From: a virus
Taxonomy: Duplodnaviria > Heunggongvirae > Uroviricota > Caudoviricetes
Direction: 5' to 3' (one strand)
IMG/VR virus record: IMGVR_UViG_2609459850_000003
Length of the DNA: 8,164 nucleotides
This document shows, in pieces, positions 1-8,164 of this stretch; within the stretch, counting starts at the first letter, position 1, and each line of letters opens with the position of its first letter. The notes under the pieces are model-generated. The model was given only the letters and a program-made list of their open reading frames with translations, searched no databases and was not told the origin of the DNA. The position numbers were made by a program, and so were the translations under genes.

Positions 1-362
<362 letters not shown>

Positions 363-442: not shown

Positions 443-1470
<1,028 letters not shown>

Positions 1471-1583
1471 GGATATTTATCAGGATTTATCGGCTTCAAA
1501 TCCCCGGATATGTTAAATCTTACCTCACCAGTGATGGGCACTGGCGGGAGGAGGATGTCAATCTGATAAACACAGAGGCGACT

Positions 1584-1844
1584 ATGGATTACACAAATCT
1601 ACCTAAACAAACTTTTGCTGATTTAATCGCACTCAGGCAAGCAGTCGTAGCTCTAATCAACTTGTTGCCGGAGAAGGAAAAGGAATTAGTTAAAGCGCTT
1701 CTTAACAGAACTGCCGCCGATTTTTCATCATATCCACTGACAGATGACCTTGCGGACCTTCCTGAATTAATTGCAGCGTCCGCCAATAAGCTTACTGAAG
1801 AGATTTACCCTCCTCAAAAATCTTCACAAAATTCCTGCGAGTAA
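1584..1844 (+). CDS. Possible small acidic helical protein (86 aa), antisense to the lysis operon; hypothetical
   Basis: ATG at 1584 is preceded by AGAGG at 1574-1578 (5-nt spacer). The translation has amphipathic-helix character (LIALRQAVVALINLLPEKEKELVKALL). Its 3' 53 nt overlap the convergent 183-aa ORF, and the C-terminal tail looks low-complexity. It occupies an otherwise unexplained gap of about 320 bp between the endolysin and the upstream ORF. Confidence 0.3.
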   Translation: MDYTNLPKQTFADLIALRQAVVALINLLPEKEKELVKALLNRTAADFSSYPLTDDLADLPELIAASANKLTEEIYPPQKSSQNSCE

Positions 1845-2343
1845 CTTCAATGCAATAATCGTAAAACGCCGCAAACTGCTCATCGCGGCGTTTTTTTTCA
1901 TCTTCAGAAGGAATCAGCACCGACAATTTTTTATTCAGATCAGCGACGCTGCCCTCCAGTTTTTCAATGGGCGATTCAATATCATCTTTTTCTGACCGCA
2001 ATGCCGTCGGTGGCGTCTTCAGAGAACCAGTAATTCTTCCCGGTAGCTTTCCTTTGTAGGTTATCCACACATTCTGCGCCTCTAAAATTATGGGGCGCTT
2101 TTCCGGCGACTGCTCATCCCCTTCACATAACCCGGCAGCAACATCCAGGAAGACCTGTCTGATGCTCCTTCTGGCTGCTGCCTCATAAAACTCCAGCGCG
2201 GCACCTTCAACACGGTCCAGCGAGATGTCCAGGTCAAAAATTTCACCGTCAAAGTGTTTTTTGTCCCGTAAGGCTACAGTTACCGCCACTTTATTCTCAA
2301 AATTGCGAACTCCTTTCACAACCAGTTCATAGTCTTGAGTCAT
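1792..2343 (-). CDS. Hypothetical phage protein (183 aa) located between holin and endolysin
   Basis: Long ORF on the lysis-operon strand; first ATG at 2343 lies 4 nt after the holin stop, with a purine-rich GAGAG upstream (the ORF track's 2364 start is TTG). Mixed charged and hydrophobic composition, no transmembrane segment seen by eye, no family recognised. Occupies the slot of ydfR in K-12 Qin but is much longer. Confidence 0.6.
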   Translation of the reverse strand: MTQDYELVVKGVRNFENKVAVTVALRDKKHFDGEIFDLDISLDRVEGAALEFYEAAARRSIRQVFLDVAAGLCEGDEQSPEKRPIILEAQNVWITYKGKLPGRITGSLKTPPTALRSEKDDIESPIEKLEGSVADLNKKLSVLIPSEDEKKRRDEQFAAFYDYCIEVTRRNFVKIFEEGKSLQ

Positions 2344-2347
2344 TGGA

Positions 2348-2563
2348 TTACTCTCTTCTCGCAACCTTACGCCTGTCTTCTTTAATCTTGAAATAAAGGT
2401 TTGTCAGATACGTCAGCATGCCAAATACCAGACTACCCAATACACCTATTGCCGCCCACTGTGAGGGCGTGACTTTATCGAGCAACTGTAAAAACCAGTA
2501 GCCAGCACTGCCTGCAGAGGTGCTGTAGGCGATGCCCGTTGTTAACTTATCCATGGATTTCAT
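2348..2563 (-). CDS. Class II holin of the phage 21 S21 pinholin family, with dual-start motif
   Basis: 71-aa product [71 protein letters not shown]: two transmembrane domains (the first Gly/Ala/Ser-rich and SAR-like) and a basic C-terminus. The M1-K2-S3-M4 dual-start motif is characteristic of S21-68/S21-71 holin/antiholin. Strong RBS GGAGGTGAGG upstream of the ATG at 2563. The ORF-track extension to 2647 has no ATG start. Confidence 0.9.
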
Positions 2564-2648
2564 AGCCTCACCTCCGCAGATAACGGATGGTGTACACGGT
2601 TTGGTTCGAAGAAGGAAAGAAGTTACATTAGCGTAAGGCCCGAACATC

Positions 2649-2685
2649 TATTCAAAAAGAAAAACGCCAGCAATTATTCTGGCGT
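2649..2685 (-). terminator. Putative rho-independent terminator downstream of the AraC-family gene
   Basis: 7-bp perfect stem ACGCCAG (2664-2670) / CTGGCGT (2679-2685) with an 8-nt loop. On the minus strand it is followed by a T-rich tract (reverse complement of 2649-2663 is TTTTCTTTTTGAATA). About 70 nt downstream of the AraC stop. Confidence 0.5.
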
Positions 2686-2753
2686 AGCTAAAAATATCGT
2701 ATAATCTTACACTTCAAAAAATAACTTTATAAAATGCCATCACATCATATCTT

Positions 2754-3467
2754 CTAAGAAAATCTTGATAAATATTGGCGCGGAGGCACACCAAAATATC
2801 CTCTAAAAACACTTACAAAATATGATGCATTGTCATACCCGCATATTCCCGCCACCTTGCCGACAGTATGGTTACTGTAGATCAATAATCTTTGCGCCAT
2901 CATCATTCGTTCTTCAAGAATTAATTTACTAAACGATAACCCTTCGTCTTTTAATTTTCTTTTTAACAAACTCTCGCTCATATATAATCTTGAAGATATA
3001 TCACAAAGTCTCCATGACGCTGAGATATCCGAGTGAATAATAGCCTTAACTTTACAACCTAAGCTATTAAGACTTCCGAACAAAAAACTTTGCACTATTT
3101 TCTCTGAAGATAAGACAGCAAGACATGCAAGTGATATTTGATTTCTAACTACATCCACGGTTTTGCTATCACAATTCAAGCATGCAACCAAGTTCCTTAA
3201 CAAGGAAAAATCTTCACATTCTACTATCAAGTATGACGGATAAAACCTTCTTACAGAAAAAGGTGAGAGTGTGTAGTTTTTAAAGAAATCATTAACTGTT
3301 TTCTCCTCAACATCTACGATCATTAGATGATCTGTATTTGACGAAAAAAGATCTTTTAAATTGTATTCAATGAGGACAGCATTTCCTTTTTTAAACAAAA
3401 TATCTTCTTTACCAATTCGGACACCAAACGAGTTCAACACCAAAATGATAGAACATATGTATGGCAT
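2754..3467 (-). CDS. AraC/XylS-family transcriptional regulator (AppY/EnvY/Rns-like), AT-rich xenogeneic gene
   Basis: ATG at 3467 with RBS AGGTGG 5 nt upstream (the ORF-track start at 3476 is GTG). The C-terminal roughly 100 aa carry the double helix-turn-helix signature of the AraC family (...SFSKLILEERMMMAQRLLIYSNHTVGKVAGICGYDNASYFVSVFRGYFGVPPRQY). The gene and about 400 bp upstream are visibly AT-rich. Confidence 0.85.
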   Translation of the reverse strand: MPYICSIILVLNSFGVRIGKEDILFKKGNAVLIEYNLKDLFSSNTDHLMIVDVEEKTVNDFFKNYTLSPFSVRRFYPSYLIVECEDFSLLRNLVACLNCDSKTVDVVRNQISLACLAVLSSEKIVQSFLFGSLNSLGCKVKAIIHSDISASWRLCDISSRLYMSESLLKRKLKDEGLSFSKLILEERMMMAQRLLIYSNHTVGKVAGICGYDNASYFVSVFRGYFGVPPRQYLSRFS

Positions 3468-3873
3468 ATTATCCACCTGATATCATTGGGGTTACACCAG
3501 GTAAGTATAGGTGGAAAATCAATATTCGCCAGTTCAACAATAAGGAAAATCTCATTGCATCACAACTATAAAACCATGTGTTTAACTCACAAAAAACAAA
3601 TCATTAAACTAATCTGTTATATTATAATAGCTGCGTGCAATAATAATATTATATGCTCTTAATATTCACTTGAAATATCTTCATATAAAAACAGATTGAA
3701 TAAAATCTTTTGGGGCTGGTATGTTTACCAACATTAAATTGCATCTCAATGTTTTCTTTAGCGTGAACAGGATTTTTATACAAACTGACACTATGGGCAT
3801 CATAGCGTAGTTTTTACGATTGTAAATATCCTGCATACAGGAACTCATCACTTTCAGATGATATCGCATACAG

Positions 3874-4833
3874 TTAATTCACCATCAGTCTTAGAGCCAG
3901 TTCTTCCGGATAGGGATCGAAGTAATTCTGTGTAAGCAAGTAATCATTAGGATACTCACCCAGATAATGCTTCAGCAGAGTCAACGGCGCAAGAAGAGGC
4001 AATGTGCCAAAGCGATAGTTAAGTATAACCTCGCTCAACTCTTTACGCTGGCGTGTACTTAAGTAATTACTAAAATACCCCTGTATATGCATCAGCACAT
4101 TCGTGTGATTTTTACGTGATGCTGGTTTTCTGAGAATCGCCATCAGATTATCACGATACACCTCAAAGTATGATTCAAGGTCCGCCCACTCGTGTATTGC
4201 AGCCACAAATGGTCCCATATCTTTATAGCCTGCCTGGCTATGCGCCAACAACTGAAGCTTATAACGACTATGAAAAGCTAATAACTCTCTTCTTGATAAT
4301 TTCTCCTTGTAAAGATGATTGAGCTCATGCAAAGCAAAAACTCTTTCAATAAAATTCTCACGAAGCACTGGATCATGTAATCGCCCATCCTCTTCAACCG
4401 GTAGCCAGGAAAACTTTTCCATCAAAGTGCTCGTAAATAGTCCCACTCCATCTTTACGACCTCGATTACCATTTTCATCATAGACACGCACGCGCTCCAT
4501 GCCACAGCTGGGAGATTTAGCACAAACCACAAACCCCGATACATCCTTTAATTTGTCCATATAAGAACGACTAAACTCTGTCATTCTCTCTGTCACATCC
4601 TCATTCTGGTCGTGGCTGAAACACATCCGTATATTTCCTTGCTTCGAGCGCACAAGTCGTAGAGCAGGACGCGGAACTGGCAGCCCTATAGCCATTTCCG
4701 GACATACTGGTCTGAATGTTACCCATTCCACTAATTTGTCCATTAAAAAGTCATCTCTTTTGTGACCACCATCAAAACGAACAGCAGAACCGCCCAAACA
4801 ACCGCTGATCCCAATCACAGGTTTTTTTATCAT
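3874..4833 (-). CDS. DUF523 (TudS-like [4Fe-4S] thionucleobase desulfidase) fused to DUF1722 (YbgA-like); RudS-like
   Basis: 319-aa ORF; ATG at 4833 with strong RBS GGGGGAGG. N-terminus MIKKPVIGISGCLGGSAVRFDGGHK...PVCPE...KSPSCG matches the recalled DUF523/TudS pattern with three conserved Cys positioned as Fe-S ligands. The C-terminal roughly 170 aa are helical, consistent with DUF1722. The domain call is from recalled signatures, not a search. Confidence 0.75.
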   Translation of the reverse strand: MIKKPVIGISGCLGGSAVRFDGGHKRDDFLMDKLVEWVTFRPVCPEMAIGLPVPRPALRLVRSKQGNIRMCFSHDQNEDVTERMTEFSRSYMDKLKDVSGFVVCAKSPSCGMERVRVYDENGNRGRKDGVGLFTSTLMEKFSWLPVEEDGRLHDPVLRENFIERVFALHELNHLYKEKLSRRELLAFHSRYKLQLLAHSQAGYKDMGPFVAAIHEWADLESYFEVYRDNLMAILRKPASRKNHTNVLMHIQGYFSNYLSTRQRKELSEVILNYRFGTLPLLAPLTLLKHYLGEYPNDYLLTQNYFDPYPEELALRLMVN

Positions 4834-5025
4834 TTCCTCCCCCTTGACTAATTCATTAACACATAAACTTTGTAGTGCACGGACTAAATTGCCTTTCTGG
4901 CTTCATCACTGACAATTTTTCTGTTATTGACTATTCCTAATATAGTAGGAAAGTTCTTTAAGTGATCGGTCGTACTCATCTATCTTTCATACTTACTCTC
5001 AACTATCAAAAGTACAGGATTTATT
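4834..5025. promoter_or_regulatory. Divergent intergenic region between the DUF523-DUF1722 gene (-) and the lipocalin gene (+); presumed promoters and operators
   Basis: 192-bp AT-rich spacer between divergently oriented start codons. Contains TTGACT-like hexamers (for example 4927-4932) and an imperfect direct repeat TGACAAT (4910-4916) / TGACTAT (4928-4934). No promoter could be assigned confidently by eye. Confidence 0.35.
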
Positions 5026-5550
5026 ATGAAGTTATGGCCTGTGTTGACTGGCATTGCACTCTCTTTCACTCTTATAGCATGTAAGGCCCCGACACCACCT
5101 AAAGGTGTGCAGCCGATTACAAATTTTGACGCCAACCGCTACCTCGGAAAATGGTATGAAATAGCTCGCCTCGAGAACTGGTTCGAACGTGGTCTGGAAC
5201 AGGTCAGCGCTACTTATGAAAAACGGAACGACGGAGGGATTCGCGTACTTAACCGTGGATACGATCCAACGAAAAACAAATGGAGCGAGAGCGAAGGTAA
5301 AGCATACTTTACTGGAGATACTAAAACTGCAGCGTTGAAAGTTTCGTTTTTTGGCCCCTTCTATGGTGGCTATAATGTAATCAAACTGGATGATGAGTAT
5401 AAGTATGCTCTTGTCAGTGGTCCGAACAGAGAATACCTATGGATTCTGGCAAGGACCCAAACTATTCCAGATAATGTAAAAGCAGACTATGTGCGTACCG
5501 CTCAAAAGTTGGGATTCAATGTCAATGAACTATTATGGGTTAAACAATAA
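5026..5550 (+). CDS. Bacterial lipocalin (Blc-like outer-membrane lipoprotein)
   Basis: 174-aa ORF; ATG at 5026 with CAGGA 6 nt upstream. Lipoprotein signal with lipobox L-I-A-C. Lipocalin SCR1 motif NFDANRYLGKWYEIARLENWFERG and downstream KVSFFGPFYGGYNVIKLDDEY...YLWILART closely parallel E. coli Blc as recalled. Confidence 0.9.
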   Translation: MKLWPVLTGIALSFTLIACKAPTPPKGVQPITNFDANRYLGKWYEIARLENWFERGLEQVSATYEKRNDGGIRVLNRGYDPTKNKWSESEGKAYFTGDTKTAALKVSFFGPFYGGYNVIKLDDEYKYALVSGPNREYLWILARTQTIPDNVKADYVRTAQKLGFNVNELLWVKQ

Positions 5551-5578: not shown

Positions 5579-5605
5579 AAAAAAACCAGCCTTTGGGGAG
5601 GCTGG
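5579..5605 (-). terminator. Rho-independent terminator on the minus strand, candidate tR' of the phage late operon
   Basis: Stem CCAGCCT (5586-5592) / AGGCTGG (5599-5605) with a 6-nt loop, followed on the minus strand by seven U (A-run 5579-5585 on plus). About 100 nt downstream of the Q stop, matching the lambdoid pR'-tR' architecture. No T-run follows on the plus strand, so it is not a good terminator for the lipocalin gene. Confidence 0.6.
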
Positions 5606-5705
5606 CTAAATCAGGAAACAAGCTGTTATATGATAATAACTACGTTGCGATTCCAACATTTAAAATGTTAGACTAATGAAAATCAGACAGCAACTTTTCC
5701 TTTAA
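5606..5705 (-). promoter_or_regulatory. Putative late promoter pR' / qut region between Q and the tR'-like terminator
   Basis: Position is immediately downstream of Q and upstream of the intrinsic terminator. Contains a 7-1-7 palindrome AACATTT-a-AAATGTT (5655-5669) and several -10-like hexamers on the minus strand (TATAAC, TTAAAT). Exact -35/-10 not assignable by eye. Confidence 0.3.
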
Positions 5706-6083
5706 TTATTTCGAACAATCAGCATCCATCTCCAATCGGAGATCCAACACCATCAGCATGCCCTCCACTACGCCCTCAGCTTTCTGGAGCATCCTGCCAA
5801 CCCAACAATCAGATCGCCCATGCTTACGTGCAAGCGCCATAAAAGTCATGCCGCCGACATAATAGTCCACCAATAAATCATGTAAATCGCTGTTGTTTTT
5901 TTTCAGGCGAGCCATACATTCACAAATGATCATCGCGTCATCGTCACAGCATTGCGGACGAGATCTTACTTTTGAAGGAATTAATCCCTTAAAACCGGCG
6001 GCAATGGACGACCAGGTCACATCTTCATGATTATTAGCCGCCCATGCCCCCCAACGCTCAAGAACCATCTGAATATCACGCAT
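5706..6083 (-). CDS. Phage late-gene antitermination protein Q (phage 82/21 QuuD-like type)
   Basis: 125 aa from ATG at 6083 with RBS GGAG 7 nt upstream (the ORF-track start at 6098 is TTG). Sequence [24 protein letters not shown]...[32 protein letters not shown] closely resembles DLP12 QuuD as recalled, including the Cys cluster. Located immediately upstream of the late promoter/terminator and lysis genes. Confidence 0.8.
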
Positions 6084-6100
6084 CAACTTACTCCACAAAA

Positions 6101-7830: not shown

Positions 7831-8164
7831 GGTAATGACTCCAACTTACTGATAGTGTTTTATGTTCAGATAATGCCCGATGACTTTGTCATGCAGCTCC
7901 ACCGATTTTGAGAACGACAGCGACTTCCGTCCCAGCCGTGCCAGGTGCTGCCTCAGATTCAGGTTATGCCGCTCAATTCGCTGCGTATATCGCTTGCTGA
8001 TTACGTGCAGCTTTCCCTTCAGGCGGGATTCATACAGCGGCCAGCCATCCGTCATCCATATCACCACGTCAAAGGGTGACAGCAGGCTCATAAGACGCCC
8101 CAGCGTCGCCATAGTGCGTTCACCGAATACGTGCGCAACAACCGTCTTCCGGAGCCTGTCATAC
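7831..8164 (-). mobile_element. IS1 insertion sequence, terminal 334 bp (continues beyond window end)
   Basis: Terminal inverted repeat ggtaatgactccaacttactgatagtg begins at 7831. The following sequence encodes the InsB C-terminus on the minus strand and matches IS1 as recalled nearly base for base. Confidence 0.9.
7846..8164 (-). CDS. insB: IS1 transposase InsB, C-terminal part (5' end outside window)
   Basis: Translation ...[88 protein letters not shown] is the canonical InsB C-terminus. TAA stop at 7846-7848 sits just inside the IS1 terminal repeat. The frame stays open to the window edge. Confidence 0.9.

What the first reader, a model, noticed from the sequence alone, without database searches (positions are those of the whole stretch)
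5026..5550. Second, prophage-encoded Blc-like lipocalin oriented antisense to the phage late transcript
The ORF has an intact lipobox (LIAC) and the lipocalin SCR1 motif, so it is likely a functional outer-membrane lipoprotein. It is convergent with Q, and the tR'-like terminator lies between them. Any Q-antiterminated late transcript must read through this gene in antisense, so its expression would be shut off by transcriptional interference on induction, a lysogeny-specific expression pattern. Blc family members bind lysophospholipids and are linked to envelope stress. A phage-borne paralogue might modify the outer membrane or contribute to superinfection exclusion.
Basis: partly seen in the sequence, partly recalled or inferred. 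Interest (0 to 1): 0.5.

Follow-up and report, generated by a model that had tools for sequence, protein, structure and literature searches.

The report
Prophage-borne Blc-like lipocalin moron
A lambda-like prophage carries its own outer-membrane lipocalin gene pointing against the phage late transcript; the gene is real and conserved but already catalogued as a phage accessory gene, and it appears to have been acquired with its neighbour rudS from a bacterial stress locus, not from the host's own blc.

Summary
Window 5026-5550 (+) is an intact 174-aa lipocalin pre-lipoprotein with lipobox LIAC (Cys19) and the GxW motif. It converges on a QuuD-type Q gene, and a late-strand terminator lies between them.

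It is 59% identical to E. coli Blc, so it is a diverged paralogue, not captured host blc.

It is not new. The same region occurs in 1146 of 5426 complete E. coli genomes and in cultured lambda-like phages annotated 'Lipocalin Blc'. Mathieu et al. 2020 list blc as a moron in more than half of their lambda phages.

What I add:
- The gene belongs to a second enterobacterial lipocalin lineage (76-82% identical, 499/500 bootstraps).
- In chromosomes that lineage lies beside a MerR-type regulator and rudS, a tRNA 4-thiouridine desulfidase gene. The phage carries lipocalin and rudS back to back without the regulator.
- All 80 viral-contig loci examined keep the order AraC-, RudS-, lipocalin+, Q- where the contig reaches, with intact lipocalin ORFs.
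- dN/dS between diverged alleles is 0.06-0.10.
- The 104 bp upstream and the terminator are conserved above the neutral rate.

Lysogeny-only expression and antisense shut-off fit the anatomy but are untested. Superinfection exclusion has no support.

The parts
5026..5550 (+). Lipocalin pre-lipoprotein gene, 174 aa, Blc subfamily, MerR/rudS-linked lineage
   Evidence: ORF. Pfam PF08212 at 7.5e-43. NF007786 at 312.6 bits against a 267-bit cut-off. 59% identical to K-12 Blc. 76-82% identical to MerR-linked chromosomal lipocalins, clade recovered in 499/500 bootstraps. dN/dS 0.06-0.10.
5026..5082 (+). Type II signal peptide ending in lipobox L-I-A-C; Cys19 codon at 5080-5082; Lys at +2
   Evidence: Read. 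Aligned gap-free to the Blc signal peptide and lipobox. A18 and C19 are invariant across 13 homologues.
4922..5025 (+). Constrained lipocalin-proximal upstream region, presumed to hold the promoter. Candidate -10 elements are CATACT at 4988-4993 and TATAGT at 4941-4946. The RBS is near 5011-5016.
   Evidence: 4.8% divergence between window and phage 1H12, against 15.9% in the rudS-proximal half (Fisher p = 0.014) and about 16% at synonymous sites (p = 0.008). The hexamers were read by eye. No site reaching 9 of 12 was found on the plus strand.
4934..4951 (.). Imperfect 18-bp palindrome TTCCTAATA/TAGTAGGAA, a candidate operator
   Evidence: Unchanged between diverged phage alleles. It aligns with the conserved chromosomal block TCAATATACTACGAAT at the same distance (-89/-90) from the ATG. 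BLAST finds no homology in the intergenic region, so this is only suggestive.
5584..5607 (-). tR'-type intrinsic terminator for the late (minus) strand. On the plus strand the same hairpin follows the lipocalin gene but has no U tract.
   Evidence: 0 of 24 differences between diverged alleles, against 6 of 34 in the adjacent spacer (p = 0.037).
5608..5705 (-). Region that must hold the Q-dependent late promoter pR'. The best candidate read by eye is TTGCTG (5693-5688), a 17-nt spacer, then TAACAT (5670-5665).
   Evidence: Its position between the Q stop codon and the terminator. The -35 hexamer is unchanged between alleles; the -10 reads TAACAT in the window and TAATGT in 1H12. Not mapped. Homology with the DLP12 region downstream of quuD is too weak to transfer a promoter.
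5706..6098 (-). Antiterminator Q of the QuuD type. RefSeq annotates a shorter start, giving 378 nt.
   Evidence: PF06530 at 8e-51. 86% identical to K-12 QuuD. phrog_79.
3874..4833 (-). rudS (TudS/DUF523 + DUF1722), divergent partner of the lipocalin gene and sense to the late transcript
   Evidence: Pfam. 92% identical to phage 1H12 gp66, which is RudS_vir. RudS_vir lowered tRNA s4U when overexpressed (PMC11417400). Its GC/GC3 (0.43/0.40) matches the lipocalin gene (0.44/0.41).
2754..3476 (-). AraC/YdeO-like regulator, third gene of the accessory block, of separate compositional origin
   Evidence: Pfam and NCBIfam. GC 0.34. 47% identical to the EDL933 OI-8 AraC regulator. Present in about 76 of 80 loci.
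2348..2647 (-). P21-type holin, the first lysis gene reached by the late transcript after it crosses the accessory block
   Evidence: PF04971 at 8.9e-34.

Best explanation
Window 5026-5550 encodes a lysogenic-conversion ('moron') protein, an outer-membrane-anchored lipocalin lipoprotein of the Blc subfamily. It sits in the accessory slot directly downstream of the Q gene, the pR' region and the tR' terminator of a lambdoid prophage, and it is transcribed against the late operon.

Shown here:
- It is an intact, selectively maintained gene.
- It is not a copy of host blc. It belongs to a second enterobacterial lipocalin lineage.
- In chromosomes that lineage lies divergently beside a MerR/MlrA-type regulator and rudS. 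In Cedecea and Scandinavium the regulator is followed by a long operon (SnoaL, SDR, amine oxidase, DUF1365, CFA-synthase-like, DUF2878, DUF3833) that runs on to rudS.
- The phage carries lipocalin and rudS back to back, without the regulator. The two genes share an atypical base composition.

Inferred mechanism:
- The protein is exported by Sec, lipidated at Cys19 and sorted by Lol to the periplasmic face of the outer membrane, because residue +2 is Lys and not Asp.
- Its calyx binds an amphipathic lipid, as Blc binds lysophospholipids and fatty acids.
- It is transcribed in the lysogen from its own weak, possibly sigma-S-type or activator-dependent promoter within the constrained 104 bp upstream.
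- On induction, Q-modified RNA polymerase reads through tR' and across the gene in antisense. That should depress lipocalin expression, while rudS and the AraC-like gene are co-transcribed with the lysis genes.
For: Gene identity and lipoprotein features: (Blc crystal structures 1QWD, 2ACO and 3MBT match at E about 1e-65).

Selection: dN/dS is 0.06-0.10 at dS of about 0.2. 80 of 80 viral-contig loci have intact ORFs, in 7 alleles. The region is present in 1146 of 5426 complete E. coli genomes, and 1036 of those also keep both flanking intergenic regions.

Carried by viable phages: 1H12, the Lambda_ev series and IdasGreatGrand.

Fixed architecture in different phage backbones: Qin-type with DUF968, and DLP12/lambda-type with RusA.

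Lineage:
- Chromosomal relatives at 76-82% identity lie beside MerR plus rudS.
- The frd-(ampC)-blc-gdx lineage is only 57-61% identical.
- Phage plus MerR-linked lipocalins are monophyletic in 499 of 500 bootstraps.
- Phage RudS is 70-72% identical to the RudS of the same chromosomal loci.
- GC3 is 0.41 and 0.40 for the two phage genes, against 0.50-0.56 for flanking phage genes.

Regulatory constraint: the upstream 104 bp and the terminator are conserved above the neutral rate.

Terminator and orientation.

Precedents:
- K-12 DLP12 has the porin gene nmpC in the same slot and the same antisense orientation after quuD.
- Phage 1H12 has a Bor-like lipoprotein gene antisense to its lysis genes.
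- Mathieu 2020 lists blc as a moron.
Against: - There are no expression, localisation or phenotype data for this gene anywhere I could search.
- No sigma-70 site reaching 9 of 12 lies upstream on the plus strand. The two candidate -10 hexamers lack a -35.
- The gene's own 3' hairpin has no U tract.
- pR' is assigned by position only.
- The allele in this window has R52W, G65E and P145Q at columns that are invariant or nearly so in all other homologues. It sits in an IS-flanked, probably defective Qin-type prophage, so this copy may be partly decayed.
- The physiological role of Blc itself is poorly defined (my own knowledge).
- Intergenic homology to the chromosomal loci is not detectable by BLAST.
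Confidence: 0.6

Rival explanations
1. Functional two-gene stress module. Lipocalin and rudS act together as a phage-borne UVA/photo-oxidative protection cassette taken from a MerR-controlled locus. RudS strips photo-crosslinkable s4U from tRNA, and the lipocalin handles damaged or modified envelope lipids. Orientation would split their expression: lipocalin in the lysogen, rudS also during UV-triggered induction.
For: - The two genes are linked in chromosomes of Enterobacter, Leclercia, Cedecea and Scandinavium and in a metagenome contig.
- In more distant bacteria, lipocalins sit next to amine oxidase, DUF1365 and CFA-synthase-like genes (loci L065, L072, L075, L081, L085).
- In S. maltophilia, the lipocalin Smlt2367 is induced 165-fold together with cfaS genes in a chrR mutant (PMC11832516).
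- RudS_vir is active on tRNA s4U.
- The two phage genes share base composition and are linked in every IMG/VR locus where the contig reaches both.
Against: - Linkage may only reflect a single capture event.
- The regulator and all the lipid-modifying genes were left behind.
- No biochemical link between a lipocalin and RudS is known.
- Light induction of the enterobacterial MerR loci themselves has not been shown. Their regulators carry MlrA_C domains, not B12-binding domains.
- E. coli in the gut sees little light.
Confidence: 0.25
2. Superinfection exclusion. The lipoprotein masks or alters an outer-membrane receptor, as T5 Llp and phi80/N15 Cor do for FhuA, and so protects the lysogen from other phages.
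For: - It is an outer-membrane lipoprotein made by a temperate phage, probably in the lysogen (anatomy).
- Many lambda morons are membrane proteins (PMC6969025).
Against: - There is no similarity to any PADLOC defence model, and PHROGs lists the family as function unknown.
- The protein keeps the residues conserved in chromosomal, non-phage homologues, which is not what a receptor-specific blocker would be expected to show.
- Its closest relatives are chromosomal genes in a stress locus.
- It occurs in phages with different tail and host-range modules.
Confidence: 0.07
3. Passenger DNA. The gene has no role in E. coli or its phages and persists only through tight linkage to Q, pR' and the lysis genes. 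In this window, a decayed IS-flanked Qin-type prophage, it is on its way to becoming a pseudogene.
For: - The window allele has three substitutions at near-invariant positions (R52W, G65E, P145Q). Its dN/dS against the nearest allele is higher, 0.19-0.23 from 4-5 nonsynonymous and 6 synonymous changes.
- The prophage is flanked by IS5 and IS1.
- In strain 503829 the neighbouring AraC gene is cut by IS1.
Against: - dN/dS between the diverged phage alleles is 0.06-0.10.
- No truncated copy was found among 80 loci.
- More than 1000 genomes carry the full-length gene.
- The upstream region is conserved above the neutral rate.
- The gene is retained in viable phages, where packaging limits should purge useless DNA.
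Confidence: 0.12

Closest known systems
E. coli Blc (b4149), the outer-membrane lipocalin in the frd-ampC-blc-gdx locus; structures 1QWD, 2ACO, 3MBT
   Same: Same Pfam and NCBIfam family. Same length, with a gap-free alignment over the phage protein's 174 residues (Blc is 177 aa) at 59% identity. The lipobox Cys is at position 19. The GxW, FERG, KVSFFGPFYGGYNV and YLWIL.R blocks are shared.
   Different: A different lineage and locus. The phage protein groups with MerR/rudS-linked lipocalins in 499 of 500 bootstraps, and frd-linked Blc proteins are only 57-61% identical to it. Residue +2 is Lys rather than Ser. It is phage-borne. The rpoS dependence and lysophospholipid binding known for Blc (my own knowledge: Bishop 1995; Campanacci 2006) have not been tested for it.
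MerR/MlrA-type-regulator-linked lipocalins of Enterobacter, Leclercia, Cedecea and Scandinavium, and more distant lipocalins in amine oxidase-DUF1365-CFA synthase clusters (for example S. maltophilia Smlt2367)
   Same: These are the closest sequence relatives (76-82% identical). They keep the same divergent arrangement relative to the rudS-containing operon.
   Different: The phage copy lacks the MerR regulator, the transthyretin-like gene and all the lipid-modifying genes. Its GC3 is 0.41 against 0.66-0.76 in the chromosomal genes. It is embedded in a phage late region.
Lambda Bor / Iss lipoprotein morons
   Same: A small outer-membrane lipoprotein gene in the late region of a lambdoid phage, oriented against the late transcript. 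A Bor-like gene has this orientation in phage 1H12 and iss in strain CE0007a. Expression in lysogens is known for lambda bor (my own knowledge: Barondess & Beckwith 1990, 1995).
   Different: An unrelated fold and family. Bor lies downstream of Rz, whereas this gene lies between Q and the holin gene. The serum-resistance phenotype has not been tested here.
nmpC of DLP12 (lc of phage PA-2), a porin gene immediately after Q
   Same: The same slot and the same antisense orientation, directly downstream of an 86%-identical Q (quuD), and also an outer-membrane protein.
   Different: A porin, not a lipocalin. The sequence downstream of quuD is largely unrelated.
T5 Llp and phi80/N15 Cor superinfection-exclusion lipoproteins
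   Same: Phage-encoded outer-membrane lipoproteins (my own knowledge).
   Different: No sequence relationship was detected with the libraries used. Those proteins bind FhuA. Nothing here indicates receptor binding.

Membership tests
Bacterial lipocalin, Blc subfamily (PF08212 / NF007786) | Profile match above the curated cut-offs | tested here: met
   PF08212 scores 146.4 bits against a 24-bit cut-off. NF007786 scores 312.6 bits against a 267-bit cut-off.
Bacterial lipocalin, Blc subfamily (PF08212 / NF007786) | Lipocalin structurally conserved regions: SCR1 G-x-W and the conserved C-terminal Arg | tested here: met
   G41, W43 and R143 are invariant across 13 homologues including K-12 Blc. The alignment to the 3MBT chain covers residues 20-174.
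Bacterial lipocalin, Blc subfamily (PF08212 / NF007786) | Type II signal peptide with lipobox Cys, and no Asp at +2 (outer-membrane sorting) | tested here: met
   L-I-A-C19-K20, read. A18 and C19 are invariant. This is sequence evidence only; lipidation and localisation were not measured.
Bacterial lipocalin, Blc subfamily (PF08212 / NF007786) | Binds lysophospholipid or fatty acid in the calyx | not testable with these tools
   Needs purified protein and ligand assays.
Orthologue of chromosomal blc proper | Located in the frd-(ampC)-blc-gdx locus, or groups with genes from that locus in a tree | tested here: not met
   The frd-linked lipocalins are 57-61% identical and form a separate clade. 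The phage gene groups with MerR-linked lipocalins in 499 of 500 bootstraps.
Phage moron (lysogenic-conversion accessory gene) | Present in some and absent from other closely related phages at the same position | tested here: met
   K-12 DLP12 has nmpC after an 86%-identical Q. The lipocalin block is found in 1146 of 5426 genomes and in several different phage backbones.
Phage moron (lysogenic-conversion accessory gene) | Base composition distinct from the flanking phage genes | tested here: met
   GC3 is 0.41 for the lipocalin gene and 0.40 for rudS. It is 0.50 for Q, 0.56 for DUF968 and 0.52 for the lysozyme gene.
Phage moron (lysogenic-conversion accessory gene) | Own promoter and terminator, allowing expression from the repressed prophage | tested here: inconclusive
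   The upstream 104 bp is constrained, but no sigma-70 site reaches 9 of 12 on the plus strand. The 3' hairpin lacks a U tract on the plus strand. No transcript data exist.
Phage moron (lysogenic-conversion accessory gene) | Confers a host phenotype in the lysogen | not testable with these tools
   No published phenotype was found.
Superinfection-exclusion or defence proteins | Similarity to a known exclusion or defence family | tested here: not met
   No PADLOC hit at E <= 0.01. PHROG 2809 is listed as 'unknown function'.

The most novel reading that the evidence does not exclude
The lipocalin-rudS pair is a phage-carried excerpt of a MerR-controlled light/photo-oxidative stress regulon, and gene orientation sets its expression programme. 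The lipocalin would be made only in the lysogen, from its ancestral sigma-S-like promoter now freed of its MerR regulator. It would protect envelope lipids. rudS would additionally be boosted by Q-dependent late transcription, exactly when UV has triggered induction, so that tRNA stays free of s4U crosslinks and phage proteins can still be made.
Probability: 0.2. Interest if true: 0.55.

Novelty: already known. Interest (0 to 1): 0.3.

Why it matters
About one complete E. coli genome in five carries this gene, and more than half of the lambda-like phages cultured from infant guts do. It is therefore one of the commonest phage accessory genes in E. coli whose function is unknown.

Knowing that it comes from the MerR/rudS-linked lipocalin lineage, not from blc, and that it always travels with a tRNA-s4U desulfidase gene gives a concrete hypothesis to test: protection against envelope and translation damage under UVA or oxidative stress. 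It also offers a simple natural case for testing whether orientation against the late operon gives lysogeny-only expression.

On its own it is an ordinary, already annotated moron.

Tried and rejected
1. Host-DNA capture of blc is rejected. Identity to K-12 Blc is 59%, and the gene falls in a different clade and locus.
2. The plasmid blc linked to blaCMY-2 is a different gene. It is only 66.9% identical at the nucleotide level.
3. I tried to transfer a mapped pR' from DLP12 quuD. The downstream sequences align poorly apart from an ATATAACAG block, so pR' remains positional.
4. BLAST found no homology between the phage and chromosomal intergenic regions. The MAFFT alignment shows an 11-of-16 block at the same distance from the ATG. 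I treat this as suggestive only.
5. The LitR/MlrA-type operator TGTACA-N12-TGTACA (PMC9758184) was not seen by eye in the phage or chromosomal upstream regions.
6. Rfam gave no match in the whole window, and PADLOC gave none.
7. The first NJ bootstrap was spoiled by a 3-residue pseudogene fragment. It was redone without that fragment.
8. I tried to show that the AraC-like gene is PsrA or PsrB. The Yang 2015 paper is not held. A 50-kb fetch of EDL933 around 1.63-1.67 Mb contained no AraC gene. Only the OI-8 regulator, presumed to be PatE, could be compared, at 47% identity.
9. One context look-up failed and was repeated.
10. I did not predict a structure. Crystal structures of a 59%-identical protein exist.
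Full report
OBSERVATION

It has an ATG start and encodes 174 aa.
- It matches Pfam Lipocalin_2 at E = 7.5e-43.
- It scores 312.6 bits on the NCBIfam model for outer membrane lipoprotein Blc, above the 267-bit cut-off.
- The N-terminus MKLWPVLTGIALSFTLIAC|K has a basic residue, a hydrophobic core and the lipobox L-I-A-C. Cys19 is encoded at 5080-5082 and Lys follows at +2.
- The protein aligns without a gap to K-12 Blc, lipobox on lipobox, at 59% identity.
- The GxW motif (G41, W43) and R143 are invariant in an alignment of 13 homologues.
- Crystal structures of Blc (3MBT, 1QWD, 2ACO) match at E of about 1e-65 over residues 16/20-174.

SURROUNDINGS

The window is the late-control and lysis region of a lambdoid prophage, read on the minus strand. 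In order it holds:
- a DUF968 protein (7150->6101);
- antiterminator Q (6098->5706; PF06530; 86% identical to K-12 QuuD);
- the lipocalin gene on the opposite strand;
- a TudS/DUF523-DUF1722 protein (4833->3874);
- an AraC/YdeO-like regulator (3476->2754);
- a P21-type holin (2647->2348);
- a DUF1327 protein, a lysozyme and Rz.

An IS5 end and an IS1 copy flank the region.

Between Q and the lipocalin gene lies a terminator-like site on the minus strand only (5607->5584).
- It has a 9-bp stem followed by U7, with a folding energy of -18.4 kcal/mol and z = -4.4.
- On the plus strand the same hairpin is followed by CUAAAUC, and z is -1.8.

The Q-dependent late promoter must lie in 5705-5608.
- The best candidate by eye is TTGCTG, a 17-nt spacer, then TAACAT (5693-5665). 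The -35 hexamer is unchanged between alleles, and the -10 varies (TAATGT in 1H12).
- I could not map it. Homology with the DLP12 region downstream of quuD is too weak.

The genes converge, a tR'-type terminator lies between them, and any late transcript on its way to the holin gene must cross the lipocalin gene in antisense.

IS IT REAL AND MAINTAINED?

Distribution:
- The lipocalin gene with both flanking intergenic regions is found in 1146 of 5426 complete E. coli genomes. In 1036 of them at least 80% of the query is covered.
- It is carried by cultured lambda-like phages (1H12, the Lambda_ev series, IdasGreatGrand) at 96-97% protein identity.
- In different backbones the order is the same. 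These are Qin-type with DUF968, DLP12-type with RusA/YlcG and lambda-type with NinB to NinX.
- Among 80 IMG/VR loci every one shows AraC-, RudS-, lipocalin+, Q- wherever the contig reaches. All 80 lipocalin ORFs are full length, in 7 protein alleles.

Selection:
- Between the diverged alleles (dS 0.17-0.20), dN/dS is 0.06-0.10.

Non-coding DNA is also constrained. Comparing the window with phage 1H12:
- The 104 bp next to the lipocalin start differ at 4.8%.
- The rudS-proximal 88 bp differ at 15.9% (Fisher p = 0.014).
- Synonymous sites differ at about 16% (p = 0.008).
- The terminator has 0 of 24 differences, against 6 of 34 in the adjacent spacer (p = 0.037).

WHERE IT COMES FROM

The host's own blc is not the source. 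Closest relatives outside E. coli are 72-80% identical and come from Cedecea, Scandinavium, Pantoea, Klebsiella, Lelliottia and Enterobacter.

Context look-ups and a genome scan show two cleanly separated lineages in Enterobacterales.
1. The classical blc lineage lies in the frd-(ampC)-blc-gdx locus of Escherichia, Salmonella, Citrobacter, Enterobacter chuandaensis, Buttiauxella, Kosakonia and others. It is 56-61% identical to the phage protein.
2. The second lineage is a lipocalin transcribed divergently from a MerR-family regulator carrying MlrA_helical and MlrA_C domains. The gene content of the regulator's operon varies:
   - a transthyretin-like gene and a DUF523-DUF1722 gene in Enterobacter mori, E. 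intestinihominis, Leclercia tamurae and metagenome contig L005;
   - the DUF523-DUF1722 gene alone in E. sichuanensis;
   - a long operon (SnoaL, SDR, amine oxidase, DUF1365, CFA-synthase-like, DUF2878, DUF3833) that runs on to DUF523-DUF1722 in Cedecea and Scandinavium.

Tree and composition:
- Phage plus MerR-linked lipocalins are monophyletic in 499 of 500 bootstraps, and the phage alleles in 500 of 500.
- Mean identity is 80% to the MerR-linked group and 59% to the frd-linked group.
- Whether the phage clade is sister to the sampled chromosomal genes or nested among them is unresolved (200 of 500).
- The phage DUF523-DUF1722 protein is 70-72% identical to the one in those same loci.
- The two phage genes share an unusual composition, GC/GC3 of 0.44/0.41 and 0.43/0.40. 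Flanking phage genes have GC3 of 0.50-0.56, and the chromosomal homologues have 0.66-0.76.

The simplest reading is one capture of a lipocalin | MerR-(TTR)-rudS locus from an unsampled, lower-GC donor or a long time ago, with loss of the regulator. Deleting merR from the E. sichuanensis arrangement would give the phage arrangement directly.

WHAT THE PARTNER IS

The DUF523-DUF1722 protein is RudS.
- Jamontas et al. (NAR 2024, PMC11417400) showed that RudS enzymes remove the 4-thiouridine modification from tRNA.
- They tested 'RudS_vir', which is gp66 of Escherichia phage 1H12. It lowered tRNA s4U when overexpressed.
- The window protein is 92% identical to it and keeps Cys12, Cys44 and Cys110.
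- Further afield, lipocalins sit beside amine oxidase, DUF1365 and CFA-synthase-like genes in Comamonas, Chromatiaceae and Burkholderiales.
- In Stenotrophomonas maltophilia, the lipocalin Smlt2367 is induced 165-fold together with cfaS genes when the anti-sigma factor ChrR is deleted (PMC11832516).

The lineage to which the phage gene belongs is therefore associated with photo-oxidative stress gene sets. Light induction of the enterobacterial MerR loci themselves has not been shown.

PROMOTER

No sigma-70 site reaching 9 of 12 lies on the plus strand upstream of the gene.

In the chromosomal loci the lipocalin is preceded by a conserved CTACACTTAA element. From my own knowledge this fits the sigma-S extended -10 consensus CTAYRCTTAA, and E. 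coli blc is known to be rpoS-dependent.

In a MAFFT alignment, two phage elements line up with chromosomal ones:
- TCATACTTAC (CATACT at 4988-4993) aligns with the CTACACTTAA element.
- An 18-bp imperfect palindrome TTCCTAATA/TAGTAGGAA (4934-4951) aligns with the conserved chromosomal block TCAATATACTACGAAT, at the same distance from the ATG.

BLAST does not detect this homology, so I regard it as a lead only. The constrained 104 bp is the firmer evidence that a regulatory region is there.

MECHANISM

Shown: an intact, selected lipoprotein-lipocalin gene sits in a fixed position and orientation after Q, pR' and tR'.

Inferred:
- The protein is exported, lipidated at Cys19 and sorted to the outer membrane, because residue +2 is Lys.
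- It binds lipid in the calyx, as Blc does.
- It is transcribed from its own weak promoter in the lysogen.
- Convergent, Q-modified late transcription reduces its expression on induction. rudS and the AraC-like gene lie in the sense orientation and would be co-transcribed with the lysis genes.

Precedents for an outer-membrane protein gene set against the late transcript are at hand. nmpC lies in exactly this slot after quuD in K-12 DLP12. Bor-like and Iss genes lie after Rz in phage 1H12 and strain CE0007a.

RIVALS
- A functional lipocalin-RudS stress module is attractive but rests on linkage alone.
- Superinfection exclusion has no support. There is no PADLOC hit, PHROG 2809 is listed as 'unknown function', and the protein keeps the residues conserved in chromosomal homologues.
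- Pure hitch-hiking is contradicted by the selection data for the family.
- For this particular copy, hitch-hiking is not excluded. The window allele carries R52W, G65E and P145Q at columns that are invariant or nearly so elsewhere. It is tied to the DUF968/Qin-type, IS-flanked context.

NOVELTY
- RefSeq annotates the gene as 'lipocalin family protein' or 'Blc'.
- Phage records annotate it as 'Lipocalin Blc'.
- It forms PHROG 2809.
- Mathieu et al. [quoted passage not shown]
- I found no experimental work on it.

The finding as written is therefore already known in kind and in instance. The additions here are the lineage assignment, the co-capture with rudS, the invariant architecture and the selection and constraint figures.

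Noticed in passing
window 3874-4833 (-): The divergent neighbour is RudS (TudS/DUF523 + DUF1722), 92% identical to phage 1H12 gp66. That protein is 'RudS_vir', which lowers tRNA 4-thiouridine when overexpressed (PMC11417400). It lies sense to the late transcript, so Q-dependent transcription should express it on induction. UV is a classic inducer, and s4U is the near-UV crosslinking site in tRNA.
   Followed up: partly
window 2754-3476 (-) and the 397-bp gap 3477-3873: An AraC/YdeO/GadX-like regulator with very low GC (0.34), preceded by an AT-rich (about 0.31 GC) non-coding stretch. It is 47% identical to the EDL933 OI-8 AraC regulator, presumed to be PatE, which activates acid resistance. 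The closer candidates PsrA and PsrB could not be retrieved. It forms PHROG 1450, function unknown.
   Followed up: partly
window 5179-5181, 5218-5220, 5458-5460 (codons 52, 65, 145 of the lipocalin): The window allele has Trp52, Glu65 and Gln145. Every other homologue examined has Arg at 52. Position 65 is Gly or Ser elsewhere. Position 145 is Pro in most homologues and Ser or Thr in a few. The window allele travels with the DUF968/Qin-type prophage backbone and may be functionally impaired.
   Followed up: partly
window 4934-4951: An 18-bp imperfect palindrome TTCCTAATA/TAGTAGGAA lies upstream of the lipocalin gene. It is unchanged between alleles that differ by about 16% at neutral sites, so it is a candidate operator for an unidentified regulator.
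   Followed up: partly
window 1584-1844 (+): An 86-aa ORF (PHROG 2572, function unknown, no Pfam hit) is also oriented against the late operon. It overlaps the 3' end of the DUF1327 gene and may be a second antisense accessory gene.
   Followed up: no
L091 (K-12 DLP12) 1457-4326: In K-12 the slot after quuD (86% identical Q) holds the porin gene nmpC in the same antisense orientation. The position directly after Q, pR' and tR' looks like a recurrent landing site for outer-membrane protein genes set against the late transcript.
   Followed up: partly
L006, L007 (Cedecea, Scandinavium); L012-L015 (Enterobacter, Leclercia): Enterobacterales have a conserved locus with a MerR/MlrA_C-type regulator. 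Its operon may include SnoaL, SDR, amine oxidase, DUF1365, CFA-synthase-like, DUF2878 and DUF3833 genes and ends in rudS. A lipocalin is always divergent from the regulator. A conserved CTACACTTAA element precedes the lipocalin. Whether this locus is light- or oxidant-induced in enterobacteria appears untested.
   Followed up: partly
window 1-362 and about 7831-8164: An IS5 end and an IS1 copy flank the prophage fragment. Most genomes match only from 363 onward. In strain 503829, IS1 truncates the AraC-like gene. The accessory block is being eroded by IS elements in some hosts.
   Followed up: no
L011 (contig JARKOR010000135.1, labelled Candidatus Nanosynbacter MAG): A 2.1-kb contig binned as a Nanosynbacter MAG carries the E. 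coli prophage lipocalin (97% identical) and Q (98% identical). This is almost certainly a binning contaminant.
   Followed up: no
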